Below, piece after piece: positions 3,967 to 24,487 of a DNA stretch of 32,000 bases. The translations under genes were made by a program, and so were the position numbers. The notes beneath the pieces were generated by a model. The model saw nothing but the letters and a program-made list of their open reading frames with translations. It was not told the origin of the DNA and did not search any database. Each line of letters starts with the position of its first letter. The first letter of the stretch is position 1. Source of the stretch: Oleispira antarctica RB-8 (GTDB lineage: Bacteria > Pseudomonadota > Gammaproteobacteria > Pseudomonadales > Oceanobacteraceae); NCBI GenBank assembly GCA_000967895.1, contig FO203512.1, positions 537,582 through 569,581 on the forward strand. Direction: 5' to 3'.

Positions 3967-4044
3967 CCTCAATCAGAAAATAGACAAAGATTATACAAAG
4001 ACTATGGAAAGAAACATGAAACAGTTGGCAGTCAGGAGTGCAGA

Positions 4045-4914
4045 GTGACTGAACAAACAATCGTTATTTTGCCTTGGCAACGACTGGTTTTAATTTTAGG
4101 TAAGCTTACTTTTACCGTGTTAATCTCTAGCCAATTAGCCATTTTTACGTGGATGATATTAGCGCCTAGTTCCTTAGTATTGTCAGAACCAAGTCGCGCA
4201 CAAGGTGCCGCCGCAGTTATTCAAAATCAAAGTATTGCAGATATGCATATCTTTGGTGATGCGGTTGTGGAAGTGATGGAAGTTCCTAAAGAAGTAAATG
4301 CCCCTAAAACTCGTTTACGCCTAGAGTTGTTGGGAATTATGGCTGCAAGTATTGCAGAAAATTCTAGTGCGATCATTGCCCCGAAGGGCGGTGCAGGTGA
4401 AAATTACCGTATCGGAGATGTGGTTCAAGGCCGTACAAAGCTGGCAGCCGTGCAGCAAGATCAAGTGATCTTGGACAGTAATGGTAAGTTAGAAGCGCTG
4501 AAATTTGATCTAACCGACAAACAAGGCATTCAACAGTCCGCTAAGCCAACCCCCGCGCAAAGAAGAGCGCAAGCCGGTGGTACATTAAAAGAAAGATTCA
4601 GTCATATTCGCACTGCCTCAGATGCGGTAAGCCTATTAAGAGATGAGGTGGCTAATAATCCAGCGGGCGCCCTCAAGCAAATGGGGTTAGAAGTTGCGGG
4701 TAATGGCTCAGGCTATAAAGTTTCGAATTCGGGTTCAATGCTAACGCAGTTAGGCTTGCAACCGGGTGATGTGATTTTGTCTGTCAATGGACAGACATTG
4801 GGCAATTTAAATGATGATCAGATGTTATTAGAACAAGTGACTAATAGCGGTCAAGCGCGTTTGGAAATACAGCGTGGCAATCGTCGTTTTGTCGTTAACC
4901 ATACCATTAAATAA
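4045..4914 (+). CDS. gspC: Type II secretion system protein C (TM anchor, HR region, C-terminal PDZ)
   Basis: GTG start 6 nt after AGGAG. It has an N-terminal TM helix and a C-terminal PDZ-like segment (LGLQPGDVILSVNGQTLGNL). It lies directly upstream of the secretin gene. Confidence 0.8.
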   Translation: MTEQTIVILPWQRLVLILGKLTFTVLISSQLAIFTWMILAPSSLVLSEPSRAQGAAAVIQNQSIADMHIFGDAVVEVMEVPKEVNAPKTRLRLELLGIMAASIAENSSAIIAPKGGAGENYRIGDVVQGRTKLAAVQQDQVILDSNGKLEALKFDLTDKQGIQQSAKPTPAQRRAQAGGTLKERFSHIRTASDAVSLLRDEVANNPAGALKQMGLEVAGNGSGYKVSNSGSMLTQLGLQPGDVILSVNGQTLGNLNDDQMLLEQVTNSGQARLEIQRGNRRFVVNHTIK

Positions 4915-4925
4915 GGACTTAATCG

Positions 4926-8211: not shown

Positions 8212-8488
8212 GATTTTCTCTCCAATATTAGCTTGAATGATACGGATAACTGGTAAGGTTCAAATGGGAGTCGAAGCCTTACTTCCGCAATCTGGGGTGA
8301 ATAATAGCACACCTTAAATTATCCGCTACGCATGTAAAATGTGTGGTTTTAGTTTGATCACCTTATCCGTTATACTAGCGCCACTTAAATACCTAAGAAA
8401 ATACCTTAAAAGGCCTGTTTATAAAGCGCTAGGGTGTGAGTACAAGGTACTAATAATCATAATAATGAGCCAGATACTCGGGGCAACT

Positions 8489-9316
8489 ATGTCAAACGAT
8501 CAAGAATCCATACCAAAGATGCAAGCATCACAAGAAGACATGGCGATGCGCCAAAAGCAGTTACAGCAACGTCGTTTAGCAGCGCAGCGTGCAGCAAAGG
8601 CAAATCCATCGGCCGCACAGATAGCGGCACCAGCGCCTAAGCAAACACTTGCTATTATTGCTTTAGTATTGAGTTTGGGGATGGGCGGCTTTGCAGCTTT
8701 TTTGTTTATACAACTACAGGAAGCTAATGCACAGTTGGGGAAAACAGAAGATATTTTAAATGGGCACGCAACCAATTTAGCAGTCTTAAATGATAAATTA
8801 TCGGCTTCCGATGAAAATTCAAATCTATCGGTTGGCGCATTGAAAGTATTATTAAAAGATAACGCCAAAGAAATTCGCAAGCTTTGGGATCTTACGAACA
8901 AAGCGAACAAACCTAACATTGAGAAAAATACTAAAGCGATTTCTAGTGTAAAAGCATCGGTGGTTAAGGTTGATAAAAAAGCGACAGGTATCGATAAAAA
9001 AGTTGTATCGGCCAATAGCAATATTACTGGCAACAAAAACAGCATCGCCGCGCTAAAAACCAGCTTAGCCAATAGCCAAAAATCGTTAGAAACAAAGCTC
9101 GCTGATCTTAAGTCATCCGTTACAGGTTTACCTGAAGCGACTGAAAAGCGTATTGGTAATAATGAGCAGTCAATTCGTTCTATCGATGCGACCCGTAAGA
9201 AGTTAAACAGCTCTATGGCGGAAGTTGAATCTCAGTTTAATGAAATGAAATTAGAAATTGAAGATATTCAAATTCGTTTAGACCGTATGCAAAATGCGAT
9301 GACGGGTACTCTTTAG
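8489..9316 (+). CDS. Bitopic membrane protein with long A/K/N/S-rich coiled-coil ectodomain, unknown function
   Basis: The ORF is open from 8339, but the first 42-50 codons look non-coding. Plausible starts are ATG 8465 or ATG 8489 (MSNDQES...). It has a TM helix (LAIIALVLSLGMGGFAAFLFI) followed by a heptad-rich region. The 190-aa antisense ORF 8500..9072 is rejected. Confidence 0.55.
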   Translation: MSNDQESIPKMQASQEDMAMRQKQLQQRRLAAQRAAKANPSAAQIAAPAPKQTLAIIALVLSLGMGGFAAFLFIQLQEANAQLGKTEDILNGHATNLAVLNDKLSASDENSNLSVGALKVLLKDNAKEIRKLWDLTNKANKPNIEKNTKAISSVKASVVKVDKKATGIDKKVVSANSNITGNKNSIAALKTSLANSQKSLETKLADLKSSVTGLPEATEKRIGNNEQSIRSIDATRKKLNSSMAEVESQFNEMKLEIEDIQIRLDRMQNAMTGTL

Positions 9317-9320
9317 TTCA

Positions 9321-10220
9321 TTGTCTTATTTAGCTAACTCACAAGGTGTGCTCGCTATATTGCGGCATGCCTTGGAACTTCCTCCGCTTCAATTCTCAGA
9401 TATAAAAATCTTTCGTCAGCATTTAGCCTCCGGTTTTCAACGTTATTCTACAGTACAGAATGCTTTTTATTTAGGCGCGCAAGCGGCAACTTCAGGCATG
9501 GCTTTCTTAGCGGGCTATCAGAATGCGATACGGTGTTTGGATGTGAATTGTCCCAGCGATGAATTGGCTGCATTTTGTGTATCTGAAAAAGGGGTTAAGA
9601 AACCCTGGGATATGGCGACCCGACTATCGGTATCTGATGACGGTTATCTACTCGATGGAAAAAAAGGCTATGTGATGCTTTTACCAGGCGAGTTAGATCG
9701 TATGTATGTGGTTGCAAAAAACGACAAAGATCAGCTTGGTTGTCTTTATGTGCTGGCTAATACAGCCGGTATTTCAACGACCGATGCTTTAGCGGCTCCT
9801 TTTGTAGAAGATATTCCTCATAGTGGAGTGTGTTTTGATAAGGTAAAAATCCCGGCTGATCAGGTATTCGATATAGATGGCCATCAACAAGCAAATAAGC
9901 CGTTTCGTTATTGGGAAGATGTGCACGTTGCGCTGTCTATGATGGGGTGGATGTCACGAGAACTGTTAGGGAGGCAGCAATCATTCGATGGATTGGATGA
10001 TATGGTACAACTCATCTGTCAGTTAATAGAACAGTATGAAGAGCACCCAGACTATTATTGTCTTGAGAGTCTTTTGTTATTAGATAAAAGCCATGAAATC
10101 ATGGATAACTACTCCCAAAACTTATCAGAAGAATCGAAAATTCTATGGCTGAAAGACAGGTTGTTATTACAGATGGGGCAGAAAATGCGCCACCTTGTGA
10201 GAGCTAAAATGGTTAATTAA
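9321..10220 (+). CDS. Hypothetical protein with degenerate acyl-CoA dehydrogenase-like middle and C-terminal regions
   Basis: TTG start 5 nt after the preceding stop. The segment ...FCVSEKG..WDMATRLSVSDDGYLLDGKKGYV resembles the ACAD beta-barrel motif (TEP..GSD...T.A...gd.y.lnG.K.wi). Key residues differ, so the assignment is weak. Confidence 0.45.
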   Translation: MSYLANSQGVLAILRHALELPPLQFSDIKIFRQHLASGFQRYSTVQNAFYLGAQAATSGMAFLAGYQNAIRCLDVNCPSDELAAFCVSEKGVKKPWDMATRLSVSDDGYLLDGKKGYVMLLPGELDRMYVVAKNDKDQLGCLYVLANTAGISTTDALAAPFVEDIPHSGVCFDKVKIPADQVFDIDGHQQANKPFRYWEDVHVALSMMGWMSRELLGRQQSFDGLDDMVQLICQLIEQYEEHPDYYCLESLLLLDKSHEIMDNYSQNLSEESKILWLKDRLLLQMGQKMRHLVRAKMVN

Positions 10221-10256
10221 CGCTAAAAAAACGTCTTGTAAAATCTTTGTAAATAT

Positions 10257-10688
10257 TCAGCGAGCAATAACATTTGTTATAACACTGGGTAATCTTAAGC
10301 CTGAGTTGTTAGTGGAGGGCGCACCTGTATTGATTGGTAGAATGCGATTCTCTGTTACACCTTCAGCATTAATTTCATATTGTTGCTGGTTAACAGAATC
10401 ATCCGCTACATTGCCGGGGCTTTCACCTTGGCTTTCAATACTTGTAATGCTCATCTCTTGATTTAAAAGTCTAGGGATATCAAGGCTTTGCGTCGTAGAT
10501 CGATTATAACGTTTAGCCGTGCTGTAGTCGTAGTGATGAGGATTTCTTTTGGCCTCATTAATCGCAGTGAAAATATCATTGTCATAATATTTATCATGAG
10601 GATTTATAGCCCAACTCAATGAAGGAGCGAGGGCTGTGATTATTACGGCTAATGCTTGGGTAACGGAAATCTTCATTAACTTCACCAT
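10257..10688 (-). CDS. Secreted hypothetical protein, tandem paralogue A
   Basis: Signal peptide (MKISVTQALAVIITALAPSLSWA). It shares a conserved N-terminal block with the upstream gene: DKYYDNDIFTAINEAKRNP...YNRSTTQSLDIPRLLNQEMS. Confidence 0.6.
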   Translation of the reverse strand: MVKLMKISVTQALAVIITALAPSLSWAINPHDKYYDNDIFTAINEAKRNPHHYDYSTAKRYNRSTTQSLDIPRLLNQEMSITSIESQGESPGNVADDSVNQQQYEINAEGVTENRILPINTGAPSTNNSGLRLPSVITNVIAR

Positions 10689-10692
10689 TAGA

Positions 10693-11232
10693 TCAAGGTT
10701 CTGGAGTTATATAGGCTCTTGAGCTGGCTTCTGAGCGAATATTTGTAGCGCTTCCAGAGAAGCTCTCGGTACGATACTCAACTTTATCCACCTTATAGAC
10801 CGCGGGTGAGAGCTCAGACGTTTCTGTAGAAGGCTGAATTGAAATGTCGAATCTATTGCTTTTAGTATCGGCTAAGAAGTCCAGTTCAGAGTCATCTTGT
10901 TTATTCGCAATAACATCTTCTGCATTCAGCTCCAAAGGCGATGTTCGCACAGGAGCAACGTCTCCAGGACCTGCGGCAGTAGCGTCGAGAGCGCCATCGA
11001 CAATTTCAGAAGACATTTCAGTATTCATTAATTTGGGGAAATCAAAGCTTTTTGATGTCGTTCGATTATACCAACGATTGCCCACGTAGGTTTCATTACT
11101 GGGGCTATTTTCAGCTTCTTTAACGGCTGCATCAATGTCATTCGAGTAATAAGGGTTGTCGCTTGATTGCGCGTTCGCAAGCATGACGCCACTAATTAAT
11201 AAGAATGAAGTGATAAAGAGTGGGGTTTTCAT
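10693..11232 (-). CDS. Secreted hypothetical protein, tandem paralogue B
   Basis: I place the start at ATG 11232, where GGGAG lies 8 nt upstream and the signal peptide MKTPLFITSFLLISGVMLANA follows. The ORF-track start at 11394 would overlap the divergent gene. Shared block: NPYYSNDIDAAVKEAENSP...YNRTTSKSFDFPKLMNTEMS. Confidence 0.6.
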   Translation of the reverse strand: MKTPLFITSFLLISGVMLANAQSSDNPYYSNDIDAAVKEAENSPSNETYVGNRWYNRTTSKSFDFPKLMNTEMSSEIVDGALDATAAGPGDVAPVRTSPLELNAEDVIANKQDDSELDFLADTKSNRFDISIQPSTETSELSPAVYKVDKVEYRTESFSGSATNIRSEASSRAYITPEP

Positions 11233-11246
11233 TTTCAAACTCCCTA

Positions 11247-11276
11247 TTTTTTGTTGTTTTTTGTTATTTTTTGTTA
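11247..11276. repeat. Three tandem 10-bp units TTTTTTGTT(G/A): helically phased T6/A6 tracts
   Basis: ttttttgttg (11247-56), ttttttgtta (11257-66), ttttttgtta (11267-76). They sit in the divergent intergenic region, immediately upstream of the RBS of the minus-strand gene. Confidence 0.8.
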
Positions 11277-11341
11277 TGCATGGCATCATACAAGTGACAA
11301 CAAAATGATGCAAATGATCCCTTTGTGGATAGGACATAATA

Positions 11342-12001
11342 ATGATAAAAATCGGATTATTGCTGTTATCGGTATTCATGTTACCGAGCTGCACAATTTA
11401 CCAGTCTATTGGTCATAGTTTCGGAAGTTTTGTTTCTACCCCTAATGGACAAGATTTTCAACCTGTCGGCTATCGCTGGGATTATGAACATACCGCTTTA
11501 GTTTATGTGTATCGCCCAGCGTCGACTTGGGCGAATGACGAACTAGAATCGCCGAGCTTTTATTTGAATGGCGAGCGCTTATTCAATATTAAAGGCAATG
11601 GCTATACTTGGTATGAATTAAAACCAGGGACTTATGAAATTAAAATTCGTCGACCTCTATTGGGGCTAGAAGGCATTGAAGTAACTAATGCCGTCGATTT
11701 CACTTTAAGAATGGTCACAGAATTAGACTTAAATGCGAAAGCCGGCAGCGTTTATTACCTTCGATATTCTGAAGTTGATAAAGATGCGGCTAAGTTTGAG
11801 AATATGACTTTCCATGAAAATCCTTTGCAGTTAGTTACGCCAGAAGTGGCATTGGCTGAGATTCAGCAAACAAAAATGTTGGATGAAGGGCGAGGCTTAA
11901 TAGCAGATATCCCCGAAGAGGAAGTAAAAATAGCCGCACCTGCAAAAGAGAAGCCTCAGCAAGAGGAAAGCCCAGGAACGAAAAGTTGGAATCCTTTCTA
12001 G
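11342..12001 (+). CDS. Lipoprotein, DUF2846-like
   Basis: Lipobox LLSVFMLPS-C-TIY. The core VYVYRPAS...FYLNGERLFNIKGNGYTWYELKPGTYEIKI fits the DUF2846 pattern as I remember it. The C-terminal tail is E/K/P-rich. Confidence 0.6.
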   Translation: MIKIGLLLLSVFMLPSCTIYQSIGHSFGSFVSTPNGQDFQPVGYRWDYEHTALVYVYRPASTWANDELESPSFYLNGERLFNIKGNGYTWYELKPGTYEIKIRRPLLGLEGIEVTNAVDFTLRMVTELDLNAKAGSVYYLRYSEVDKDAAKFENMTFHENPLQLVTPEVALAEIQQTKMLDEGRGLIADIPEEEVKIAAPAKEKPQQEESPGTKSWNPF

Positions 12002-14175: not shown

Positions 14176-14523
14176 TCAATGGCTAATCCCAATGTAGTCG
14201 ACCAGCATTGAGCGTCCTTCACAGCCTAATGATTTAATACTCACTTTATGCTTAAAATTAAGCGCCGCGAGTACTAACTGAAACTTTCTCTTTGCTACTT
14301 CTTGATTGTCACTATAAGACCGATACCTGTTTGACAATTTCCCGCCGCACTTATGTGATTTTAGTGACGTAAAGAAATCAAAGCCAGCCTGAGTATCGTC
14401 CTCTATTTGGTATAAAGAAATAATCAATAAGTTATTTTTTACATTATTCTCTTCGGCAAAAGAGGTTTGAATACCCCCTAGAACGAATGAAAATAAAAAA
14501 GCTACCTGAATCAATGACTTCAT
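14176..14523 (-). CDS. Small secreted hypothetical protein (two Cys), divergent from the rotor-stator operon
   Basis: Start at ATG 14523, preceded by the strong RBS AAGGAGGG. Signal peptide MKSLIQVAFLFSFVLGGIQTSFA. The mature part is about 90 aa with 2 Cys. Confidence 0.55.
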   Translation of the reverse strand: MKSLIQVAFLFSFVLGGIQTSFAEENNVKNNLLIISLYQIEDDTQAGFDFFTSLKSHKCGGKLSNRYRSYSDNQEVAKRKFQLVLAALNFKHKVSIKSLGCEGRSMLVDYIGISH

Positions 14524-14632
14524 AAACCCTCCTTTAGATAAAAGTATAGCCAATTTTTTAAAACCATCATCAAACCTGAATATATGAACTATGCTGACAT
14601 TAGAAATCTGATAAAAACATCAGGGTTAAGGA

Positions 14633-15700
14633 ATGTTGATGGTCGTTAAAAATTTAAGAATATTATGCATCGGTTTATTAATGTCACTGAATTATGTTCA
14701 GGCGGCAGAACCTGATTTACCGCACATGGCTGAGCCAGCACCGACTCTCTATACAGGCTTTGGCCAATTATTAGATGACGATAAAACGCTGGTCTTAGAA
14801 GAATTAATGGACTTAGATCAAAATATTCAGCGTATCGCACTTTATCATAATGGCGATCGCTTGCACCGCTTAATCCCCAAGCAAGTGCACCAAATGATCG
14901 AGAATAAACTCATGCGTCGTTTAATTGCGAATGGCCGTTTTGATGTCATTCAGTGTCTCGAATGTCGAACGACTAAAGTAGTGATGGCTGTTGATGAGTT
15001 GAAAATATCACAAGCTGCTGAAAATAATCAGCAATTAAGAGCGCTATCAAAAAAAGTGCGTGCAGATGCCTTTATGTTCTGGAGTGCATCTGTACATGAA
15101 AATAAATTTACTATTAATTTGCGCTTAGTCGATGGTAAAAATAATGAGCTGCTATGGCTGAAAGAATATTCTAAAAAGACCACTCAAGAAGCGGAAGAAA
15201 ATGATTTTGATAGAGTTCAATATGAATTCATTGTCGGCGCTTGGGGGGTGAAAGGAAAACGTGAAAGTACCGTTGCCGCCGGGAGTACTGAACTAAAGGG
15301 AGCAACAGTTTTTGGTATACGTCGTAGAGAAAGCACAGAGTTAAATGAAGATATTGAATATACCTTAGGTTTTGAATACTTCACAAACTATTCGTCTGAA
15401 GAACTATTTGATCTCAGTGGTTATAATCTTGAAGGTCGAGTTATTGCAGATATTCCTGCCTTAGATGATGTGCTGGATACGAAAGTTTATCTTGGCATAG
15501 GGCAGTCATTTTTTAATGATGCAAACAGTCTGATCTTTCGTTTTGGCTTTGAATTTCCCTTCTTTAAAGACGGATTTATGGATTTTGGTGTGATGTATAT
15601 GCGAGAAGCCAATGTTAAGTGGAAGACCGATGCTGCGTTTGAAGAAATAGGCACTTTCGGTGGTGCAAGTTATGACTTAACACTCGGTGTGCGCTTCTAA
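14633..15700 (+). CDS. Putative outer-membrane protein: TolB-N/CsgG/FlgO-like N-domain plus C-terminal beta-barrel (operon gene 1)
   Basis: Signal peptide ...LLMSLNYVQA/AEP. The alternative start ATG 14639 sits 6 nt after AAGGA. The N-domain pattern LRALSKKVRADAFMFWSASVHENKFTINLRLVDGKNNELLWLKEY matches the ...A..lg..lgaD.vl.G.v......i..rLvd..tge.lW motif of TolB-N-like periplasmic domains. The C-terminal ~170 aa has alternating hydrophobic strands ending ...YDLTLGVRF (terminal Phe). Confidence 0.65.
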   Translation: MLMVVKNLRILCIGLLMSLNYVQAAEPDLPHMAEPAPTLYTGFGQLLDDDKTLVLEELMDLDQNIQRIALYHNGDRLHRLIPKQVHQMIENKLMRRLIANGRFDVIQCLECRTTKVVMAVDELKISQAAENNQQLRALSKKVRADAFMFWSASVHENKFTINLRLVDGKNNELLWLKEYSKKTTQEAEENDFDRVQYEFIVGAWGVKGKRESTVAAGSTELKGATVFGIRRRESTELNEDIEYTLGFEYFTNYSSEELFDLSGYNLEGRVIADIPALDDVLDTKVYLGIGQSFFNDANSLIFRFGFEFPFFKDGFMDFGVMYMREANVKWKTDAAFEEIGTFGGASYDLTLGVRF

Positions 15701-15709
15701 GGACGAATT

Positions 15710-16432
15710 ATGAAACAGTTAATAATTGCTTTATTGATAGTATTAATCAGTGCATGTACGCATGAAAGAACAAATAGAATGCTTACCCAGTATGGTGATA
15801 GTCAGCCTGATTTATTGGGAATTGGCGAACAGAGTACTGAAGCAACTGCTGAAATCTCGCTTGAGACCATAGAGAAGCGTAAGCAAGTTGCTGATTTAGC
15901 AAAAAAGAATCATGGTTTAATGCACATCCATCGCTACGGCCCTGGGTTTGATGTCTTAATGACATTAGATACGGGGGATAGCGATGTTAGTTTTAGTATG
16001 GCGCTGCCTTCAACACCGGGAAGTCTGCAAGACTCACTTCGAAGTGATTTACAAAAAAGTGCAGAAGAAATTGCTGAACAAAACAAACAAGTTCTTGAAA
16101 GCTTGGATGACGATAAAGCTGAACTTCATCATGAAGAATTAGATGAGCGCAGTGAATTAATTGAGCAAAAGAAAATTCAAGACTTTCAAGCTTCAACAAA
16201 ACACATCTTTAGTGCGCAGTCTTTATTTTATAAAAAGCAATATTGGCAATCATTGGATGAAACTAATAAAGCGCTAGAGCTAGTTCCAGACTCTGCTCAA
16301 GCGCATGCTTTGAAAGGCAGCATTTATTACAAAATGGGATTAAGTGCTGAAGCCAAAGCTAGTTGGCAGCAAGCGTTAGAAATAGATCCAACGATGGAAC
16401 AAGTCAAAACCAGTTTGACGCGCTTGAAGTAG
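15710..16432 (+). CDS. TPR-containing lipoprotein (operon gene 2)
   Basis: Lipobox LIVLISA-C-THE. An acidic, coiled middle region is followed by C-terminal TPR-like repeats (YWQSLDETNKALELVPDSAQAHALKGSIYYKMGLSAEAKASWQQALEIDP). It starts 9 nt after gene 1, with AAGGA overlapping the preceding stop. Confidence 0.7.
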   Translation: MKQLIIALLIVLISACTHERTNRMLTQYGDSQPDLLGIGEQSTEATAEISLETIEKRKQVADLAKKNHGLMHIHRYGPGFDVLMTLDTGDSDVSFSMALPSTPGSLQDSLRSDLQKSAEEIAEQNKQVLESLDDDKAELHHEELDERSELIEQKKIQDFQASTKHIFSAQSLFYKKQYWQSLDETNKALELVPDSAQAHALKGSIYYKMGLSAEAKASWQQALEIDPTMEQVKTSLTRLK

Positions 16433-16443
16433 GGGAACGGAAT

Positions 16444-18369
16444 ATGAAATTATTGATACAAGGTATCCTCAATCTGTGTCTGATCTGTGCAGTAGCTTAT
16501 CCTATTGTGAATGCTACGGCTGAGACTGGGAAAACCTTTGAAGTACCGGCTAAAAAAGATGAAATCGAAGAGGTGCGTTTTAAAGATGAAATGGAAGCGC
16601 GATTGAATCGAGACTTACAGGCATATCTTGGGAATAATCGCTTTATCATTCATGTTGAAGCCGAATTGAAAAAAACACGTACTGTTGTAAAAGAACGATC
16701 TAATACCGCGGCTAAGAATATTCCAGAACGCCCAGTATTTACTTCACAACCTTTGCCAGTATCAATCGATAATCGAACAAGAGAAATCGAAGAAACACTC
16801 CCTGGGCTTCCGACCAGTGATTTACCCATTTTCGAAGATAACAGTGTGGAAGTCGATGCGTTGAAAGGCCGTGTTCAGCAATTAGAGAATGAGCGGCAGC
16901 AAGCTCTGGGATATGCTGAAAAATTACGCCAAGAAGCTGAAAAGCAGATAGAAAAAATTAAAGAAAAAACGCTAGGTTATAGAAATTCTATTAATAAACT
17001 CACTATAACCGTGGTATTAGATAAAAGTTTAAAAGATGAGCAAATAGAATTCATTCGTAATTTGATTACTCGTAAAGCGCGCTTAGATGAATTACGAGGA
17101 GACTCTTTAAGCATTGTTCGTACAGAGTTTAAAGACGTTAAGCAAGATGTTGTACTGGATGGTTGGCAACAATACCAAGGCTGGATCATGTTAGCTTGTT
17201 TTGGCTTTATGATGTTGTTATTACTGCTGGTGCTCTATTTATTTAATAAGCGCTTGAGTGAGAGTCTAAAAGAGAATCAGCGAAGAAGTGATAACTTTGA
17301 TAGCCTGACTGTTCCGGCTGCCGTTGAAATGGCTCCTATTGATCATTCGGAAAATGAGGGTAATGATAAGCGTCGTCAGCTTAATGAAATGCGCCAAGAG
17401 CTCGTGACGATTGGCTTAGGCCAGCCACAGCTATTTCAACAGCGTATTAACGAACAGTTAAATAGCGGAAATAGTCAAAATGTAGCGGCCTTATATGAAG
17501 TATTAGGAAAGGGGTTGTTTCGCAGTCTTTGCCCAAAAATATTAAATTCTGATGCTGAAACTTTAGCAGACCAAGTCGCACAACAGCCTTTAGATAATGA
17601 ACAAAAACTTACTTATTTAAATAATCTGCGTCACGAGATGTTAAAAGCGTTAAGTGATGATGAAACGGGTAATGCTCCCTTTGCTTTTTTGGAAAAATTA
17701 AATGATTCACAAGTTTTATATTTAATAAAAGAAGAAGAAACGCGGATCAAAGCGTTGGTTTTATCGCAAGTTCCTGCAAAAAGAGCGGCCAGTTTAGTGC
17801 AGCGACTAGAGGGGCGTGAGCAATCTGCGGTAGCGTATGAATTGGGTGAGTTTGAAACCTTACCCGTATCAACCTTCAAAGACGTTGCGGATCGTTTAGC
17901 ACAAAAATCTTTGAATGTTCCAAGCTTTGAGAATGTATCTGCGAATGGTCTGTCAGTATTAATTAATATGCTAGACACCATGAGCAGTGGTGAAGAAACT
18001 CGTTTACTTAAAACATTAAAAGCGGATAAACCTGAAACCTATTATCGTTTGCGCCAAGTATATTATACCTATGCTGATTTGATGCGAACCCCTGAGCGAG
18101 TGATTGCGAATGAGCTTAGAGATGTTGATCGTACGGTGATGGCGTTATCGCTATGCCATACTACAACCGAATTCAAACGACATGTGTTAACGGGGTTGCC
18201 AGCCAAGCTACGATCTTCTGTCATTGCAGAATTGAAAATACAAGAAGGCCAAGCAGCACAAGAGCAAACTGAGCAGGCTAGAAATCAAGTTGTGGCTAAG
18301 ATGCGTGAAGTATTAAAAGCAGGCCGCTTTTCTATGGAAGAATTGATCGCTGTTGCGAATCCAAGTTAA
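16444..18369 (+). CDS. Bitopic FliF-like (periplasmic ring-building motifs) / FliG-like (cytoplasmic N-M-C domains) fusion protein (operon gene 3)
   Basis: I place the start at ATG 16444, with GGGGAACGG upstream and an N-terminal hydrophobic segment. The ORF-track start at 16363 would overlap gene 2. Periplasmic part: MEARLNRDLQAYLGNNRFIIHVEAEL and INKLTITVVLDKSL..EQIEFIRNLITRKARLDELRGDSLSIVRTEF, with the RGD-x-v-x-V...F motif placed before the TM as in FliF. TM about aa 247-267 (nt 17182-17244). Cytoplasmic part: AALYEVLGKGLFRSLCPKILNSDAETLADQVAQ (FliG-N like), EEETRIKALVLSQVPAKRAASLVQRLEGREQSAVAYELGEFETLP (FliG-M like, at the EHPQ position), and VYYTYADL...VIANELRDVD..VMALSL...LPAKLRSSVIAEL....ARNQVVAKMREVLKAGRF (FliG-C like). 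Confidence 0.7.
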   Translation: MKLLIQGILNLCLICAVAYPIVNATAETGKTFEVPAKKDEIEEVRFKDEMEARLNRDLQAYLGNNRFIIHVEAELKKTRTVVKERSNTAAKNIPERPVFTSQPLPVSIDNRTREIEETLPGLPTSDLPIFEDNSVEVDALKGRVQQLENERQQALGYAEKLRQEAEKQIEKIKEKTLGYRNSINKLTITVVLDKSLKDEQIEFIRNLITRKARLDELRGDSLSIVRTEFKDVKQDVVLDGWQQYQGWIMLACFGFMMLLLLLVLYLFNKRLSESLKENQRRSDNFDSLTVPAAVEMAPIDHSENEGNDKRRQLNEMRQELVTIGLGQPQLFQQRINEQLNSGNSQNVAALYEVLGKGLFRSLCPKILNSDAETLADQVAQQPLDNEQKLTYLNNLRHEMLKALSDDETGNAPFAFLEKLNDSQVLYLIKEEETRIKALVLSQVPAKRAASLVQRLEGREQSAVAYELGEFETLPVSTFKDVADRLAQKSLNVPSFENVSANGLSVLINMLDTMSSGEETRLLKTLKADKPETYYRLRQVYYTYADLMRTPERVIANELRDVDRTVMALSLCHTTTEFKRHVLTGLPAKLRSSVIAELKIQEGQAAQEQTEQARNQVVAKMREVLKAGRFSMEELIAVANPS

Positions 18370-18378
18370 GGATCAAGT

Positions 18379-19182
18379 ATGAATCGATTTTCGTTTAGTA
18401 CACTGGTTGGGATAACGGTCGCTATTAGCCTTTTCATGTACGCCATTGTTTCGAGCACCAATAACTATTTAATGTTTATTAGTGTCTCAAGCTTTGCTTT
18501 GGTGGCGGGAAGCACGTTTGCAGCCTCTTTGATTAGCTATACCACAGCAGACGTCCTTACCGCGATTAAAGCATTATTTGAGACCTTGTTTCATGCGCCG
18601 ACCAGTTCGAAACATTTACGCGGCCATGTAGAGCGCTTTATTGAATGGGGAAGTATTTATCGTCAACAAGGTATTGCGGGATTAGAGTCTTCGCTAACGG
18701 ACAAAGAGCGCAGAGATCCATTTTTAGCACACGGTATGGAGCTATTAAGCAGTGGTTATAAAAACCATGACATTCGTACTATTTTAACCGATGACATGGA
18801 CGCTTTCTGGCAACGAATGACTGTCGAGTCAAAAGTATTAAATACGATGGCTGTTTATGCTCCCGGCTTTGGTATGGTTGGTACCATCATCGGTTTGATT
18901 ATTATGCTCGATAATATGAATGGCGATATGGCCGCCTTAGGTAAAGGTTTGGCATTGGCATTAATTACAACGCTATATGGCGTTGTATTGGCCAACATTT
19001 TCTTTAGACCTGCTGCCAACCAAGTGACCGAAAAACAAGAATCATTATACTTTCGTGATCAAATGATTGTTGAAGGGTTTGTATTGTTAGCCGAGAAGCG
19101 TGACGCATTATTTATGCAAGATCGGTTGAATGCTTACCTCAAACCAAGTGCACGTTATCAGCCAATAGAAGAAGAGCTGTAA
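18379..19182 (+). CDS. MotA/PomA-family stator A subunit (operon gene 4)
   Basis: The 267-aa, 4-TM layout aligns by eye with V. alginolyticus PomA: APGFGMVGTIIGLIIMLDNM...LALALITTLYGVVLANIFFRPAANQV versus APAMGMIGTLVGLVAMLSNM...MAVALLTTLYGAILSNMVFFPIADKL. The cytoplasmic loop YRQQGIAGLE aligns with PomA ARKGGFLALE. Confidence 0.9.
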   Translation: MNRFSFSTLVGITVAISLFMYAIVSSTNNYLMFISVSSFALVAGSTFAASLISYTTADVLTAIKALFETLFHAPTSSKHLRGHVERFIEWGSIYRQQGIAGLESSLTDKERRDPFLAHGMELLSSGYKNHDIRTILTDDMDAFWQRMTVESKVLNTMAVYAPGFGMVGTIIGLIIMLDNMNGDMAALGKGLALALITTLYGVVLANIFFRPAANQVTEKQESLYFRDQMIVEGFVLLAEKRDALFMQDRLNAYLKPSARYQPIEEEL

Positions 19183-19862
19183 TGACAGAGTCGGTTTCTA
19201 ATAAACACAGGGGGCTAAGACGTCGTCGCCCCAATTTTGAGGATTCATCCAGCTCTTGGTTAATTACCTACTCTGATGCAGTTACTTTGCTGCTCGCTTT
19301 TTTTGTAATGATATTATCTGTCTCAGATTTGAATCAGGGAAAAGTGGAAGCGCTAAAAGAAGGTCTAACAGAAGCGATGACAGGAGAGGCGCCTCCTACA
19401 CCATTTACCGATATTAAAAATGGCTTAGAGCAATTAATTGAGCAGGATGGCTTGCAAGATCAAGTCTCTGTTACTCTAGATAAAGAAGGTGTGAAAATAG
19501 AGTTTTCAAATGTTTCATTATATCAATCAGGTTCGGCCGATATTAAAATTGATGCGATTAAAACACTGAATAAAGTAACTCAAGTTATACTAAAAACCAG
19601 CCATAAGACTCACATGGTCGAAGTGGGTGGGCATACTGATAATGTTCCAATTCATACCGAAAAATTCCCATCAAATTGGGAGTTGTCGTCTGCGCGAGCA
19701 ACCAATGTTGTTAAGTACTTATTAGCAGAAGGAATCGAAAAAGAACGACTAAAAGCGGCAGGTTACGCCGATAGCCGACCTAAAGAAAACAGCCTTAATT
19801 TACCCCTCAATCAGCAGCGTGAAGATAATCGACGCGTGGTTATTTTTGTAAAGCGTTACTAG
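19182..19862 (+). CDS. MotB/PomB-family stator B subunit with OmpA-like peptidoglycan-binding domain (operon gene 5)
   Basis: TAATG overlap with gene 4. The TM segment WLITYSDAVTLLLAFFVMIL carries the invariant Asp. The C-terminus GGHTDNVP...SNWELSSARATNVVKYL...NRRVVIFV is an OmpA/MotB PG-binding motif. Confidence 0.9.
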   Translation: MTESVSNKHRGLRRRRPNFEDSSSSWLITYSDAVTLLLAFFVMILSVSDLNQGKVEALKEGLTEAMTGEAPPTPFTDIKNGLEQLIEQDGLQDQVSVTLDKEGVKIEFSNVSLYQSGSADIKIDAIKTLNKVTQVILKTSHKTHMVEVGGHTDNVPIHTEKFPSNWELSSARATNVVKYLLAEGIEKERLKAAGYADSRPKENSLNLPLNQQREDNRRVVIFVKRY

Positions 19863-19903
19863 CGTTACATCATCAAACCCATCACTCAAGATCTTAATTC
19901 ATA

Positions 19904-19923
19904 GATGACATGAAAGTGTCATC
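19904..19923 (+). terminator. Hairpin downstream of the motB-like gene (possible weak terminator)
   Basis: Stem GATGACA (19904-10), loop TGAAAG, stem TGTCATC (19917-23). It is followed by an AT-rich stretch but not a clean T-run, and it overlaps the Pho-box-like element. Confidence 0.35.
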
Positions 19924-19948
19924 TAATGTTATTAAATCTGTCACTTTC
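19916..19948 (+). promoter_or_regulatory. Pho-box-like element (three 11-bp phased units) upstream of the phoX-like gene
   Basis: GTGTCAT-CTAA | TGTTATT-AAAT | CTGTCAC-TTTC, compared with the E. coli PhoB consensus CTGTCAT-AAAA-CTGTCAT. A perfect TATAAT lies at 19981-19986, 20 nt before the ATG. Confidence 0.35.
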
Positions 19949-23758: not shown

Positions 23759-24487
23759 ATGATGCATCTAGATTTATTATCTGAATTTATTTTAGCCTGC
23801 TTTATTATGGGTTGTGGTATTGGCGCTGATGTAGCGATTGCTACGTTTGTTAGAGCGCATCAATTAGCTAAGCAAAAACAAACGAGGTACTGGGTTGTCG
23901 GGGTGACGGTTACTCATACCGTATTTCCAATGGTTGGCTATTTATTAGCGTATTTTAGTATTCAGTCTATTCCTCTATTAACCCCAATTGTTGGGGTGCT
24001 CGCTTTTTCATTCATTGCTTATTTTCTCTGGCAAGAACTGAATGGTTATTTAAATTCTGATGAAGGCGATCATGACGATCGACAATCGTTGGTCACATTC
24101 GCGTTGATTTTAGCCGTCAGTTGGGATGCTTTGTGGTCAGGCCCTGCTAAATCTGCACAGGTAATGAATTGGCCGCATGAGCTAGTGTGGGTTTCATTTA
24201 TTGTGGTGGGCTTCTTTGTTGCACTGTGTGCCTATGCTGGCTTACGGCTGGCTAAAAGGTTTAAGCAAACGAGTACTGAGTTCTCTGTCTTTATTATCGT
24301 AGGATTATGGATTCAATATTCAGTCATAGCGTATTTTGGCTTGCTGGCCCTTTTACGCTATACACTGTCATTAATGATTGATAGTTGGCAAGTATTCTCG
24401 ATTTCATCTGCAGTAGTTGCGATCGTAATGATGCTGCTCTTTATTCGAAATCAAAAAAACTTACCTGCACAGAAAACAGTTACTTAA
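23759..24487 (+). CDS. Polytopic membrane protein, MntP/DUF204-like (putative metal exporter family)
   Basis: Six hydrophobic helices with a two-fold internal repeat. By eye it corresponds to E. coli MntP: GADVAIATF vs SMDAFAASI, an acidic central loop (NSDEGDHDDRQS vs GADDEDEEPRR), and SWDALWSG vs SLDAMAVG. Confidence 0.5.
   Translation: MMHLDLLSEFILACFIMGCGIGADVAIATFVRAHQLAKQKQTRYWVVGVTVTHTVFPMVGYLLAYFSIQSIPLLTPIVGVLAFSFIAYFLWQELNGYLNSDEGDHDDRQSLVTFALILAVSWDALWSGPAKSAQVMNWPHELVWVSFIVVGFFVALCAYAGLRLAKRFKQTSTEFSVFIIVGLWIQYSVIAYFGLLALLRYTLSLMIDSWQVFSISSAVVAIVMMLLFIRNQKNLPAQKTVT

What the first reader, a model, noticed from the sequence alone, without database searches (positions are those of the whole stretch)
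14633..19862. Orphan rotor-stator operon: OM barrel + TPR lipoprotein + FliF/FliG-like fusion + MotA/MotB, with no other flagellar genes nearby
Five + strand ORFs are separated by 9, 11, 9 and -1 nt, each with its own AAGGA or GGGGA RBS, and genes 4 and 5 share TAATG. Upstream lies a divergent gene. Downstream lie a hairpin and a separately regulated phoX-like gene. Together this reads as one operon. Its products could span the envelope: (1) a secreted TolB-N/CsgG-like domain fused to a beta-barrel ending in Phe; (2) an OM-type TPR lipoprotein; (3) a bitopic inner-membrane protein with FliF-like periplasmic ring-building motifs and a FliG-like cytoplasmic domain; (4,5) a complete PomA/MotA plus MotB/OmpA stator. 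The 32 kb contains no fliM/N, export gate, rod, hook, flagellin or che genes, and the neighbours are fumarase, phhB and phoX-like genes. The known non-flagellar relatives of the 5:2 motor family (Tol, Exb, GldLM, AglRQS, ZorAB) do not use a FliG-like partner. A stator paired with a minimal FliF/FliG rotor and dedicated OM parts therefore looks like a distinct, possibly undescribed, ion-driven rotary envelope machine.
Basis: partly seen in the sequence, partly recalled or inferred. Interest (0 to 1): 0.9.

Follow-up and report, generated by a model that had tools for sequence, protein, structure and literature searches.

The report
Stand-alone FliF/FliG rotor–stator envelope operon
A conserved five-gene operon in the marine oil-degrading bacterium Oleispira encodes a stripped-down flagellar rotor fused into one protein, its own ion-driven stator and two outer-membrane proteins, with no other flagellum parts, so it probably builds an undescribed ion-powered machine in the cell envelope.

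Summary
Five tightly packed + strand genes (14633/14639-19862) form one unit, and all five evolve under strong purifying selection.

- **g3:** a real FliF-FliG fusion. It has a signal peptide, a FliF RBM3/S-ring domain, one TM helix, and FliG N, M and C domains. It lacks FliF RBM1/2 and the FliM-binding EHPQR motif.
- **g4/g5:** a flagellar-type stator. MotA R90/E98/P173/P222 and MotB D32, the plug and the OmpA domain are all in place.
- **g1:** an LpoB/TolB-N-like periplasmic domain fused to a small OM beta-barrel.
- **g2:** an OM-type TPR lipoprotein.

The window contains no other flagellar gene. The host, Oleispira antarctica, has a complete flagellar cluster elsewhere.

The same five genes recur in the same order in unrelated genomic contexts at 22-30% g3 identity, including Vibrio nigripulchritudo and metagenomic contigs. 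More distant variants keep g3 with a TPR protein and often an OM barrel, but have no adjacent MotAB.

Best reading: an autonomous, non-switching, export-less rotor-stator ring linked to OM partners. Its output is unknown. Rotation and independence from the flagellum are inferred, not shown, and every named host is, from my own knowledge, flagellated.

The parts
14586..14611 (+). Candidate sigmaE/AlgU-type promoter, GAACTA-N15-TCTGA, 22-47 nt upstream of the annotated g1 ATG
   Evidence: This is the most conserved block of the upstream intergenic region across Oleispira, Thalassolituus and related loci. The pattern GAACT-N16-18-TCTGA occurs twice in the window against 0.14 expected, and 1 of 100 shuffles reaches 2. 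The published consensus is GAACTT-N16-17-TCtgA (PMC3819740; Shewanella RpoE promoters). The spacer here is one base short. Not tested experimentally.
14633..15700 (+). g1: secreted protein with an LpoB/TolB-N-like periplasmic domain (about residues 67-190), an invariant CxxC (C108, C111) and a C-terminal small OM beta-barrel (about 194-355) ending in Phe. The likely true start is 14639.
   Evidence: Signal peptide and terminal Phe. AF2 model with pLDDT 74. Foldseek hits to NspA, OmpA, OmpX and OmpW barrels, and to LpoB, TolB-N and GNA1162. Only sub-threshold Pfam hits to FlgT_M, FlgO and LpoB. No match by sequence to any PDB chain. Homologues occupy the same position in L010-L014, L016 and L019.
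15710..16432 (+). g2: lipoprotein (lipobox LISAC, Cys16, Thr at +2, so OM-type) with a region of about 140 residues followed by two C-terminal TPR repeats (about 162-238)
   Evidence: Pfam TPR_1, TPR_2 and TPR_11 above threshold. Lipobox read from the sequence. Only generic TPR matches in the PDB. A homologue sits next to g3 in every module and in most distant variants.
16444..18369 (+). g3: FliF(RBM3)-FliG fusion. Layout: signal peptide or TM1 (1-26); periplasmic alpha-beta-[insertion 84-171 with invariant LPGLP 119-123 and a 38-residue helix]-beta-alpha-beta; TM 244-271; FliG N, M and C-like domains (about 303-630) with torque-helix residues K588 and E596
18379..19182 (+). g4: MotA/PomA-type stator A subunit with 4 TM helices. 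R95 and E103 correspond to E. coli R90 and E98; P162 and P211 correspond to P173 and P222. It is the short, PomA-like form.
   Evidence: Pfam MotA_ExbB, 90.8 bits. Best NCBIfam hits are MotP, MotA and PomA, all below their equivalog cut-offs. PDB MotA and PomA matches at E 1e-24 to 4e-29. Residue mapping.
19182..19862 (+). g5: MotB-type stator B subunit with one TM helix carrying D32 (equivalent to E. coli MotB D32), a plug and an OmpA-like peptidoglycan-binding domain
   Evidence: Pfam MotB_plug (53.9 bits) and OmpA (57.9 bits). Best NCBIfam hit is MotD at 180 bits, below its cut-off of 283. The Asp is invariant in all modules.
19902..19925 (+). Hairpin with a 10-bp stem, a possible operon terminator with a weak T tail
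   Evidence: sequence.

Best explanation
The operon encodes a self-contained rotor-stator device built from flagellar-motor parts. It lacks everything that makes a flagellum.

**Rotor (composition shown, assembly inferred).** g3 is a single-chain rotor subunit. Its periplasmic FliF-RBM3-like domain would oligomerise into an S-ring-like ring in the inner membrane. This would place one covalently attached FliG (N, M and C domains) per subunit on the cytoplasmic face.

**Stator (residues shown, action inferred).** g4 and g5 would form MotA5B2-type stator units anchored to peptidoglycan through the OmpA-like domain of g5. Ion flow past g5 D32 would turn the MotA pentamer. MotA R95/E103 would push on the FliG torque helix (K588/E596) and spin the ring.

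**What is absent.**
- The FliM-binding EHPQR motif and fliM/fliN are absent, so there is no switch. The ring would turn in one direction only.
- RBM1/RBM2, the export gate, the rod, the hook and the filament are absent, so nothing is exported and there is no axle.

**Output (inferred).** The insertion that replaces the FliF beta-collar carries the invariant LPGLP motif and a long helix. Together with the two OM-tethered proteins, g1 (LpoB/TolB-N-like domain plus OM barrel) and g2 (TPR lipoprotein), it forms either the periplasmic scaffold for the stators or the load that receives the torque.

**Physiological role.** Unknown. A conserved sigmaE/AlgU-like promoter and the constant OM partners point to an envelope or outer-membrane function rather than swimming.
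For: **g3 is a FliF-FliG fusion.**
- Pfam YscJ_FliF_C (38.1 bits), FliG_M (51.8) and FliG_C (52.6), all above gathering thresholds.
- hhalign of the family profile against E. coli FliG 6-324: Prob 98.8. Against FliF 373-447: Prob 95, sharing the motif RGDSL.V....F.
- A colinear local alignment of g3 42-229 with E. coli FliF 230-429 scores 88, against 35.5 +/- 5.8 for shuffles.
- The AF2 model has RBM topology, a TM helix and an all-helical FliG part.
- Foldseek hits full-length FliG (3hjl at 2e-10, and Salmonella C-ring chains) and FliF RBM3/S-ring entries.

**The stator is intact.** MotA R90/E98/P173/P222 and MotB D32 equivalents, the plug and the OmpA domain are all present. The roles of these residues are taken from PMC12505986.

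**The torque helix keeps charge.** It carries K588 (equivalent to R281) and E596 (equivalent to D289).

**Paired loss of interacting charges.** In two of the four modules that have lost one of these FliG charges, the interacting MotA charge is lost too. In L013, the FliG R281 position is Gly and the MotA E98 position is Gln. In L019, the FliG D289 position is Leu and the MotA R90 position is Thr. In the other two (L012, L016) the MotA charge is kept.

**No switch.** EHPQ is absent in 0 of 127 full-length family representatives. No fliM or fliN lies in any module.

**The five genes form a unit.**
- Same order in 9 Oleispira/Thalassolituus species genomes.
- Same order in Thalassolituus hydrocarboniclasticus and in a relative at 38% identity.
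- Same order in V. nigripulchritudo and in four metagenomic contexts with different neighbours.
- Homology of every member confirmed.
- Identity matrices are congruent, r 0.73-0.96.
- dN/dS is at most 0.06.

**Family size.** 306 cluster representatives score E <= 1e-10, and most share the same architecture.

**Host flagellar genes lie elsewhere**. None is in the window.

**Engineered precedent.** Engineered FliF-FliG fusions form S-rings (PMC10941966 and PMC11481574, listed). A 1:1 fusion is therefore compatible with ring assembly.
Against: - No experiment or multimer model shows that g3 forms a ring, that g4/g5 bind it, or that anything rotates.
- Only two of the five classical FliG charged residues are kept. 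K264, D288 and R297 correspond to C, A and A.
- In some subfamilies (L013/L016, L012/L019) even those two are lost.
- More distant g3 relatives have no adjacent MotAB (L017, L018, L038-L041). The rotor-like protein can therefore exist without a dedicated stator.
- All hosts with names (Oleispira, Thalassolituus, Bermanella, Vibrio, Bdellovibrionaceae) are, from my own knowledge, flagellated. A role in or with the flagellum is not excluded.
- The genome paper counts 'MotAB and PomAB' as flagellar stators, and this pair may be one of them.
- The promoter call rests on a consensus match whose spacer is one base short.
Confidence: 0.55

Rival explanations
1. The module is an accessory of the polar flagellum. 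It could be an alternative or additional rotor/stator set, or an extra ring, that assembles with or around the normal basal body. g1 and g2 would then play H-ring/T-ring-like scaffold roles for stator recruitment, as FlgT/FlgO/FlgP, MotX/MotY and PflA/PflB do.
For: - Every named host is, from my own knowledge, flagellated (taxa).
- g4/g5 are flagellar-type stators with a plug and an OmpA-like domain.
- g1 gives weak FlgT_M (E 0.006) and FlgO (E 0.037) hits.
- One distant variant pairs g3 with a Sel1-repeat protein, the repeat type found in MotX.
- The genome paper interprets two stator systems as flagellar.
- Distant g3 relatives have no adjacent stator genes and would have to borrow stators encoded elsewhere.
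Against: - The module is never adjacent to flagellar genes in any of about 20 contexts seen.
- It carries its own FliF-type ring domain and TM helix, which a canonical MS-ring does not need.
- The FliM-binding motif is lost family-wide.
- g3 is only about 15% identical to FliF RBM3, which makes co-assembly into a 34-mer FliF ring unlikely.
- In L013 and L016 the module is flanked by an integrase and TraG-like genes, suggesting it moves as an autonomous cassette.
- The upstream motif resembles a sigmaE promoter. I saw no sigma28- or sigma54-like motif by eye, though I ran no formal scan for either.
Confidence: 0.2
2. The module is a non-rotary device. The FliG-like domain acts as a regulatory or docking domain, as the related MgtE N-domain does. 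It would gate or sense ion flow through g4/g5, or sequester stator units, signalling envelope state without mechanical output.
For: - The FliG fold is shared with the MgtE N-domain. Pfam MgtE_N gives weak hits in g3 and in some relatives.
- Three of the five torque charges are lost.
- V. nigripulchritudo has a GGDEF response regulator immediately upstream.
Against: - The RBM3-type ring-building domain, the complete set of torque-coupling residues in MotA and the retained K588/E596 pair are hard to explain without rotor-stator mechanics.
- In L013 and L019 the interacting MotA and FliG charges are lost together, which suggests a functional contact.
- The GGDEF neighbour is seen in one context only.
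Confidence: 0.1
3. The operon is a decaying relic of a second, lost flagellar system, for example a lateral one.
For: Flagellar-derived domains lie away from the flagellar cluster. In one metagenomic copy (L012) motA is split into two ORFs.
Against: - All five genes are intact and under strong purifying selection, with dN 0.05-0.19 while dS is saturated.
- The same five-gene order survives divergence to 22-30% identity in unrelated contexts.
- The fusion architecture holds in more than 115 cluster representatives.
Confidence: 0.03
4. The module is a Zorya-like anti-phage defence system built on a MotAB-type motor.
For: MotB-like g5 matches ZorB models through shared MotB homology. Two variants lie near integrase and TraG-like genes.
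Against: - There is no meaningful ZorA match: E is at best 0.0017 and covers the channel core only. g4 has no long ZorA tail, and no ZorC or ZorD nuclease/helicase partner is present.
- In Oleispira and Thalassolituus the locus is syntenic core chromosome.
- No hit in the plasmid collection.
Confidence: 0.03

Closest known systems
Core of the bacterial flagellar motor (FliF MS-ring, FliG, and MotAB/PomAB stator)
   Same: g3 is homologous to FliF RBM3 through TM2 and to FliG N, M and C. g4/g5 are flagellar-type stator subunits with the plug, the OmpA-like domain and all key residues (R90, E98, P173, P222, D32). The expected working principle is the same: an ion-driven MotA5B2 unit pushing on a FliG torque helix.
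   Different: - FliF and FliG are one polypeptide.
- FliF RBM1/RBM2 are absent (no PF01514 hit). In FliF these domains house the export gate.
- The beta-collar region is replaced by a disordered segment carrying LPGLP plus a long helix.
- The EHPQR FliM-binding motif is lost.
- No fliM/fliN, export apparatus, rod, hook, filament or che genes are present.
- Dedicated OM barrel and TPR lipoprotein partners are present.
- The locus lies outside the flagellar cluster.
- NCBIfam equivalog cut-offs for FliG, FliF, MotA/PomA and MotB are not reached.
Chlamydiaceae FliF-FliG natural fusion (Bergeron 2016, PMC4768692)
   Same: It is a natural single-chain fusion of a FliF-type periplasmic RBM region, a TM helix and a FliG domain, in a setting without a flagellum.
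   Different: - The chlamydial protein is about 330 aa.
- It keeps RBM2 plus a second RBM-like region, and only the FliG M domain.
- It has no adjacent MotAB and is proposed to interact with the injectisome.
- g3 instead keeps RBM3 only, has all three FliG domains including the torque helix, and is co-encoded with a stator.
Engineered FliF-FliG fusions of Salmonella and Vibrio (PMC10941966, PMC11481574; Thomas et al. 2001, cited in PMC4768692)
   Same: They show that 1:1 covalent FliF-FliG fusions assemble into MS/S-rings. From my own knowledge, the Salmonella fusions also support rotation.
   Different: They are full-length FliF constructs working inside a complete flagellum. g3 is a natural, truncated form without the flagellar context.
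Periplasmic and OM stator scaffolds of complex motors (Vibrio H-/T-ring FlgT/FlgO/FlgP and MotX/MotY; Campylobacter PflA/PflB)
   Same: Both use OM-associated proteins with a TolB-N/LpoB-type fold and TPR/Sel1-repeat proteins beside a MotB-type stator. g1 gives weak FlgT_M and FlgO hits, and one variant carries a Sel1 protein.
   Different: The similarity is sub-threshold or at fold level only. g1 adds an integral OM barrel. No homology to these proteins is established.
Non-flagellar 5:2 ion-driven motors (TolQR, ExbBD, GldLM/PorLM, AglRQS, ZorAB)
   Same: These are ion-driven A5B2 motors encoded away from flagellar genes that energise outer-envelope processes.
   Different: From my own knowledge, and supported by the single FliG mention in PMC12505986, none uses a FliG-like rotor. 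Their B subunits lack the flagellar-type plug, linker and OmpA domain. g4/g5 belong to the flagellar-type (FIT, short TGI4-like) class by their features.

Membership tests
FliG (flagellar rotor/switch protein) | FliG_N, FliG_M and FliG_C armadillo-type domains | tested here: met
   Pfam FliG_M and FliG_C are above gathering thresholds. hhalign covers E. coli FliG 6-324 at Prob 98.8. Foldseek matches full-length FliG. FliG_N passes its threshold in the L041 relative.
FliG (flagellar rotor/switch protein) | EHPQR motif that binds FliM | tested here: not met
   E. coli E125-H-P-Q and R160 correspond to E-E-T-R and E466 in g3. EHPQ is present in 0 of 127 full-length family representatives.
FliG (flagellar rotor/switch protein) | Charged torque-helix residues (E. 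coli K264, R281, D288, D289, R297) | tested here: inconclusive
   R281 corresponds to K588 and D289 to E596, both kept. K264, D288 and R297 correspond to C, A and A. The pattern varies between subfamilies.
FliG (flagellar rotor/switch protein) | Soluble protein of about 330 aa encoded in a fliF-fliG-fliH context; NCBIfam equivalog score | tested here: not met
   It is fused behind a TM helix. No fliF or fliH lies nearby. TIGR00207 scores 58.6 bits against a cut-off of 226.7.
FliF (MS-ring protein) | RBM3/S-ring domain (Pfam YscJ_FliF_C) followed by TM2 | tested here: met
   Pfam gives 38.1 bits against a threshold of 23.8, over the full profile. hhalign, local alignment and Foldseek agree. The TM helix lies at 244-271.
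FliF (MS-ring protein) | RBM1 and RBM2 (Pfam YscJ_FliF, SctJ-like), which form the inner M-ring around the export gate | tested here: not met
   There is no PF01514 hit. Only about 30 residues separate the signal peptide from the RBM3-like helix.
FliF (MS-ring protein) | Assembly into a ring of about 33-34 subunits | not testable with these tools
   No multimer prediction was available. Only a monomer model was made.
MotA/PomA flagellar-type stator A subunit | Four TM helices, the MotA_ExbB domain, cytoplasmic R90/E98, and P173/P222 | tested here: met
   However, every NCBIfam equivalog cut-off (MotP, MotA, PomA) is missed, so this is a separate subfamily.
MotB/PomB flagellar-type stator B subunit | Single TM helix with the essential Asp, a plug, and an OmpA-like PG-binding domain | tested here: met
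   D32 is present, with MotB_plug at 53.9 bits and OmpA at 57.9 bits. The MotD equivalog cut-off is missed, 180 against 283.
Complete flagellar system | Export gate (FlhA/B, FliPQR), rod, hook, filament and FliM/N encoded with or near the motor genes | tested here: not met
   None is present in the 32-kb window or in any related locus.
Zorya anti-phage system | ZorA with a long cytoplasmic tail, plus ZorC/D or ZorE partners | tested here: not met
   PADLOC gives only weak channel-core ZorA hits (E at best 0.0017) and no partner genes.
Vibrio H-ring/T-ring components (FlgT, FlgO, MotX) | Significant sequence match to the FlgT, FlgO or MotX families | tested here: not met
   FlgT_M scores 17.2 bits (cut-off 31.2) and FlgO 14.3 (cut-off 22.6). 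The profile of g1 finds nothing in the PDB by sequence. Similarity to LpoB and TolB-N is at fold level only.
SigmaE/AlgU regulon | Promoter GAACTT-N16-17-TCtgA; dependence on RpoE | tested here: inconclusive
   GAACTA-N15-TCTGA at 14586-14611 is conserved across Oleispira. The consensus comes from PMC3819740. The spacer is one base short, and no expression data exist.

The most novel reading that the evidence does not exclude
This is a previously undescribed, autonomous rotary machine of the Gram-negative envelope. A hollow ring of FliF(RBM3)-FliG fusion subunits would be spun in one direction by its own flagellar-type stators. It would pass torque, or torque-dependent conformational work, through a periplasmic helical collar to a dedicated OM barrel and TPR lipoprotein. 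It would be the first non-flagellar use of the FliG-MotA interface. It would also be a living example of a flagellar motor core working without type III export, which bears on how the flagellum could have evolved.
Probability: 0.4. Interest if true: 0.92.

Novelty: new variant of a known kind. Interest (0 to 1): 0.8.

Why it matters
The flagellar rotor-stator pair (FliG with MotAB) is, as far as I know, understood only as part of the flagellum. To my knowledge every other 5:2 ion-driven motor uses a different partner. A conserved operon that keeps just the ring-forming part of FliF, all of FliG and a matching stator, and adds outer-membrane partners, has three consequences.

1. It would extend the known uses of this torque-generating interface beyond swimming.
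2. It would give a minimal five-protein, genetically tractable system for studying rotor assembly and torque generation, free of the roughly 40 other flagellar genes.
3. It would provide a natural test of whether a motor core can work without the export apparatus, a long-standing question in flagellar evolution.

There is also a practical point. Annotation pipelines label these proteins 'flagellar motor switch protein FliG' and count the motAB pair as a flagellar stator. That may mislead motility inferences for marine Gammaproteobacteria.

Tried and rejected
- **Genome scan too narrow.** The genome-contig scan used the single g3 protein and returned only Oleispira and Thalassolituus relatives.
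- **Third word-index search uninformative.** Run with the diverse alignment A2, it was saturated by close relatives and added only Bermanella and Marinicellulosiphila.
- **Metagenome scan.** A2 was too diverse for the metagenome scan. The narrower A5 worked.
- **Missing records.** P0251 (V. nigripulchritudo) had no gene record; a cluster member did. Looking up the RB-8 g1 protein returned metagenome contigs, not the RB-8 chromosome. The operon's distance from the flagellar cluster is therefore not known.
- **Genome paper supplements not held**. I could not tell which loci that paper calls MotAB and PomAB.
- **Plasmids.** tblastn of g3 against plasmids found nothing.
- **Defence system rejected**.
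- **Relic or pseudogene reading rejected** by dN/dS and deep co-conservation.
- **Flagellar promoter types.** A sigma28-type promoter was considered because of a CTGATAA resemblance to GCCGATAA. I found no matching -35 element by eye, and the conserved block fits the sigmaE/AlgU pattern better.
- **Ion type (Na+ or H+).** Left open. Thr at the position of E. coli MotA A180 is present in every module MotA. From my own knowledge this Thr also occurs in H+-driven short-type stators, so it does not discriminate.
- **Literature.** Seven looked for a description of this module and found none. The library lacks most subscription-journal papers.

Full report
**What is in the sequence.**

The window is from Oleispira antarctica or a near-identical strain. 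g1 is 100% identical to a 'conserved hypothetical protein' of strain RB-8. g3 is 100% identical on a marine metagenome contig. The lineage is Gammaproteobacteria, Oceanospirillales.

Five + strand ORFs lie at 14633-15700, 15710-16432, 16444-18369, 18379-19182 and 19182-19862. They are separated by 9, 11, 9 and -1 nt. AAGGA or GGGGA ribosome-binding sites precede g1-g4, and g4/g5 share a TAATG overlap. A divergent 125-aa ORF lies upstream. A 10-bp hairpin (19902-19925) lies downstream, followed by a PhoX-like gene.

One correction applies. The first ATG of g1 abuts the RBS and is not conserved in relatives, so ATG 14639 is the likely start, giving 353 aa as annotated for RB-8.

The rest of the 32 kb has no flagellar or chemotaxis gene.

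**The five proteins.**

*g3 (641 aa)* scores above Pfam thresholds for YscJ_FliF_C (residues 58-229), FliG_M (422-492) and FliG_C (524-630).

- A profile of 42 diverse family members aligns to E. coli FliG residues 6-324 (Prob 98.8, E 8e-17).
- The same profile aligns to E. coli FliF 373-447 (Prob 95, E 3.6e-8). The match includes the shared motif RGDSL.V....F just before the TM helix.
- A colinear pairwise alignment covers g3 42-229 against FliF 230-429. It scores 88, against 35.5 +/- 5.8 for shuffles.
- In that alignment g3's LPGLPTSDLP (from residue 119; LPGLP invariant among close relatives) lies in the same insertion as FliF's VPGALSNQP (from residue 309), a few residues out of register. 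I read the two motifs as counterparts.
- The AF2 model has pLDDT 73.8. It shows a signal-peptide-like helix and an alpha-beta-[insertion]-beta-alpha-beta ring-building-motif fold. The insertion holds a disordered stretch and a 38-residue helix. One TM helix and an all-helical cytoplasmic region follow.
- Foldseek returns full-length FliG (3hjl at 2e-10, and Salmonella C-ring FliG chains). It then returns FliF RBM3/S-ring entries at about 4e-4 to 1e-3, and more weakly PrgK and SpoIIIAG.

g3 is therefore FliF with TM1, RBM1 and RBM2 removed, fused to a complete FliG.

*g4* is a four-TM MotA/PomA-type protein. *g5* is a MotB-type protein with a plug and an OmpA-like domain. Both miss every NCBIfam equivalog cut-off, so they form their own subfamily of flagellar-type stators.

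*g2* is a lipoprotein (LISAC lipobox, Thr at +2) with two C-terminal TPR repeats.

*g1* has no Pfam or NCBIfam family. Its AF2 model (pLDDT 74.2) combines an LpoB/TolB-N/GNA1162-like alpha/beta domain with a small NspA/OmpA/OmpX-like barrel ending in Phe. FlgT_M, FlgO and LpoB hits are sub-threshold. A profile search finds nothing in the PDB by sequence.

**Functional residues.**

PMC12505986 states that MotA R90 pairs with FliG D288/D289, and MotA E98 with FliG R281.

| E. coli residue | Equivalent here | Source |
|---|---|---|
| MotA R90, E98 | g4 R95, E103 | |
| MotA P173, P222 | g4 P162, P211 | |
| MotB D32 | g5 D32 | |
| FliG R281 | g3 K588 | |
| FliG D289 | g3 E596 | |
| FliG K264, D288, R297 | g3 C, A, A | |

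Across modules, two of the four that have lost a FliG charge have also lost its MotA partner. In L013 the FliG R281 position is Gly and the MotA E98 position is Gln. In L019 the FliG D289 position is Leu and the MotA R90 position is Thr. In L012 and L016 the MotA charge is kept. This suggests a real contact, but the sample is small.

The EHPQR motif that binds FliM is not kept. g3 has EEETR and E466 at those positions. EHPQ is absent from all 127 full-length family representatives examined. With no fliM or fliN in any module, a switch complex is not expected.

**Is it a unit?**

The same five genes in the same order occur in many places.

- Nine Oleispira/Thalassolituus species genomes.
- The T. 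hydrocarboniclasticus chromosome.
- A contig at 38% g3 identity with different downstream genes.
- At 22-30% g3 identity, in wholly different contexts: V. nigripulchritudo, between a GGDEF response regulator and an AsmA-family gene; contigs L012 and L019; and L013 and L016, which carry TraG-like and integrase genes plus extra module-linked genes.

Homology of each of the five proteins was confirmed by phmmer and profile searches. The one exception is g1 of L012, which phmmer missed and the profile search recovered.

A metagenome scan added 17 loci. Every locus with g3 at 38% identity or more, and with enough flanking DNA, has the full set.

The pairwise-identity matrices of the five genes across eight modules give the same subgroups, with r between 0.73 and 0.96. 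Against other Oleispira copies, dN is 0.05-0.19 while dS is saturated. Where dN/dS can be computed it is at most 0.06.

The g3 family is large. An exhaustive phmmer search found 306 cluster representatives at E <= 1e-10. Among the best 150, more than 115 of 127 full-length proteins have a mid-protein TM helix followed by FliG domains, and about 80 carry LPG[LIVMF]P.

Named hosts are Oleispira, Thalassolituus, Bermanella, Marinicellulosiphila, Saccharospirillaceae, two Vibrio lineages, unclassified Gammaproteobacteria and Bdellovibrionaceae MAGs.

**Variation that limits the claim.**

- One variant (L015) lacks g1 and is followed by MoxR/DUF58/VWA genes.
- L012 and L019 add a sixth, barrel-like secreted protein.
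- More distant g3 relatives have a TPR or Sel1 protein, and often a g1-like or barrel-like protein, but no adjacent MotAB (L018, L038-L041).
- One Bdellovibrionaceae copy (L017) has no adjacent MotAB, TPR or g1-like gene and sits before two giant FG-GAP/fn3 proteins.

The constant core is therefore g3 plus a repeat protein, usually with an OM barrel. The dedicated stator is a feature of the gammaproteobacterial clades that include this window.

**Relation to the flagellum.**

The genome paper reports a monopolar flagellum for O. antarctica. It also reports a complete flagellar and chemotaxis cluster at 1,272,898-1,348,300 and 'two stator systems MotAB and PomAB' (PMC3759055). The supplements are not held, so I cannot say whether g4/g5 is one of those two. 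At least one other stator exists.

None of about 20 related loci places the module next to flagellar genes. On the other hand, every named host is, from my own knowledge, flagellated. A functional link to the flagellum cannot be excluded.

**Regulation.**

The best-conserved block upstream of g1 is GAACTATGCTGAC...TCTG(A/G). In the window it reads GAACTA-N15-TCTGA (14586-14611).

This resembles the AlgU/RpoE consensus GAACTT-N16-17-TCtgA (PMC3819740; Shewanella RpoE promoters such as bamE GAACTA...). The pattern occurs twice in the window against 0.14 expected. The spacer is one base short of the consensus, and no expression data exist, so this is a lead only.

**Most likely mechanism.**

*Shown.* The composition, topology, key residues and co-conservation of the parts.

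*Inferred.*

- g3 oligomerises through its RBM3-like domain into an inner-membrane ring with a 1:1 FliG ring beneath it. Engineered FliF-FliG fusions do form S-rings (PMC10941966 and PMC11481574).
- Peptidoglycan-anchored g4/g5 units use ion flow to push on the FliG torque helix.
- With no switch, the ring turns one way only.
- With no RBM1/2, export gate or rod, nothing is secreted and there is no axle.
- The LPGLP-plus-helix insertion, g1 and g2 connect the ring or the stators to the outer membrane.

The physiological output is unknown. The OM partners and the sigmaE-like promoter suggest an envelope function.

**Rivals.**

| Explanation | Confidence |
|---|---|
| Autonomous rotor-stator module (main model) | 0.55 |
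| Flagellar accessory or alternative rotor/stator | 0.2 |
| Non-rotary sensor or regulator | 0.1 |
| Relic of a lost flagellar system | 0.03 (contradicted by selection and deep conservation) |
| Zorya-like defence system | 0.03 (no ZorA tail or partner genes) |

**Comparison with known systems, and novelty.**

- The nearest thing is the flagellar motor core itself. This module fails several defining features of FliG, FliF and the flagellar system; see the membership table.
- The nearest natural precedent is the chlamydial FliF-FliG fusion. It keeps different FliF domains and only FliG_M, and has no stator (PMC4768692).
- The other non-flagellar 5:2 motors use no FliG-like partner.
- The recent MotAB phylogeny treats flagellar-type stators as flagellum-associated and mentions FliG only as the flagellar rotor.

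Seven looked for a description of this module and found none. The library omits most subscription journals, so prior description cannot be fully excluded.

I rate it a new variant of a known kind: a flagellar-type rotor-stator in a new, flagellum-free architecture. There is a substantial chance that it is a distinct machine in its own right.

Noticed in passing
window 3199-6830 (+): Type II secretion genes lie about 8 kb upstream of the operon: T2SSN-like at 3199-3966, gspC-like at 4045-4914 and the secretin gspD at 4926-6830. The secretin, maf, sodB, DUF2846, fumarase and phhB run, followed by the module, is syntenic in Thalassolituus. The relative at 38% g3 identity shares it from maf onward. 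This is probably plain vertical synteny.
   Followed up: partly
window 14176-14553 (-): A divergent 125-aa secreted protein with no Pfam family lies directly upstream of the operon. It is conserved in most Oleispira copies (38-74% identity). A minus-strand gene of similar size occupies the same position in L011, but none is called there in T. hydrocarboniclasticus.
   Followed up: partly
window 8339-11394: Four conserved genes without a Pfam family lie here: 325 and 299 aa on the + strand, and 143 and 233 aa on the - strand. The 325-aa protein has a weak coiled-coil (tropomyosin-like) hit. Genes of similar sizes occupy the same positions in Thalassolituus and in L011.
   Followed up: no
window 24035-24060 (+): The second match to the sigmaE-like pattern GAACT-N16-18-TCTGA lies inside the MntP-like ORF (23759-24487). 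It is probably a chance match.
   Followed up: no
L013 5272-15588; L016 4622-14786: This module subfamily is flanked by TraG-like genes, and in L016 also by a phage-type integrase. It carries extra co-oriented genes: an upstream protein of 256-282 aa, a downstream protein of 1044 aa with a glucodextranase-B (Ig-like) domain, and a lipoprotein of about 395 aa. This suggests a mobile, extended version of the system.
   Followed up: partly
L015 13496-16573: A variant without g1 is followed directly by MoxR-type AAA+, DUF58, DUF4381 and VWA genes, a Bat/MoxR-like cluster.
   Followed up: no
L017 5052-15027: In a Bdellovibrionaceae MAG, the g3 homologue has no adjacent MotAB and is followed by two giant FG-GAP/fn3 proteins (1566 and 1762 aa). 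This hints at a link to surface or adhesin-like proteins in that lineage.
   Followed up: no
L012 12150-12939: In this metagenomic copy, motA is split into two overlapping ORFs (131 and 137 aa). This is either a frameshift or pseudogene, or an assembly error.
   Followed up: no
proteins P0283, P0313, P0366 (about 310 aa): These are soluble, unfused FliG-like proteins that lack EHPQ. They score E 1e-19 to 1e-30 against g3, which suggests unfused paralogues of the same FliG-like lineage.
   Followed up: no
window 14954-14965 (g1 residues 108-111): An invariant CxxC (QCLECRTT) sits in the periplasmic domain of g1 across 30 homologues. It could be a disulfide or a metal site.
   Followed up: no
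window 1633-3000 (+): A 455-aa protein has a DsbA-like thioredoxin domain only in its C-terminal half (263-448). The N-terminal half is unassigned.
   Followed up: no
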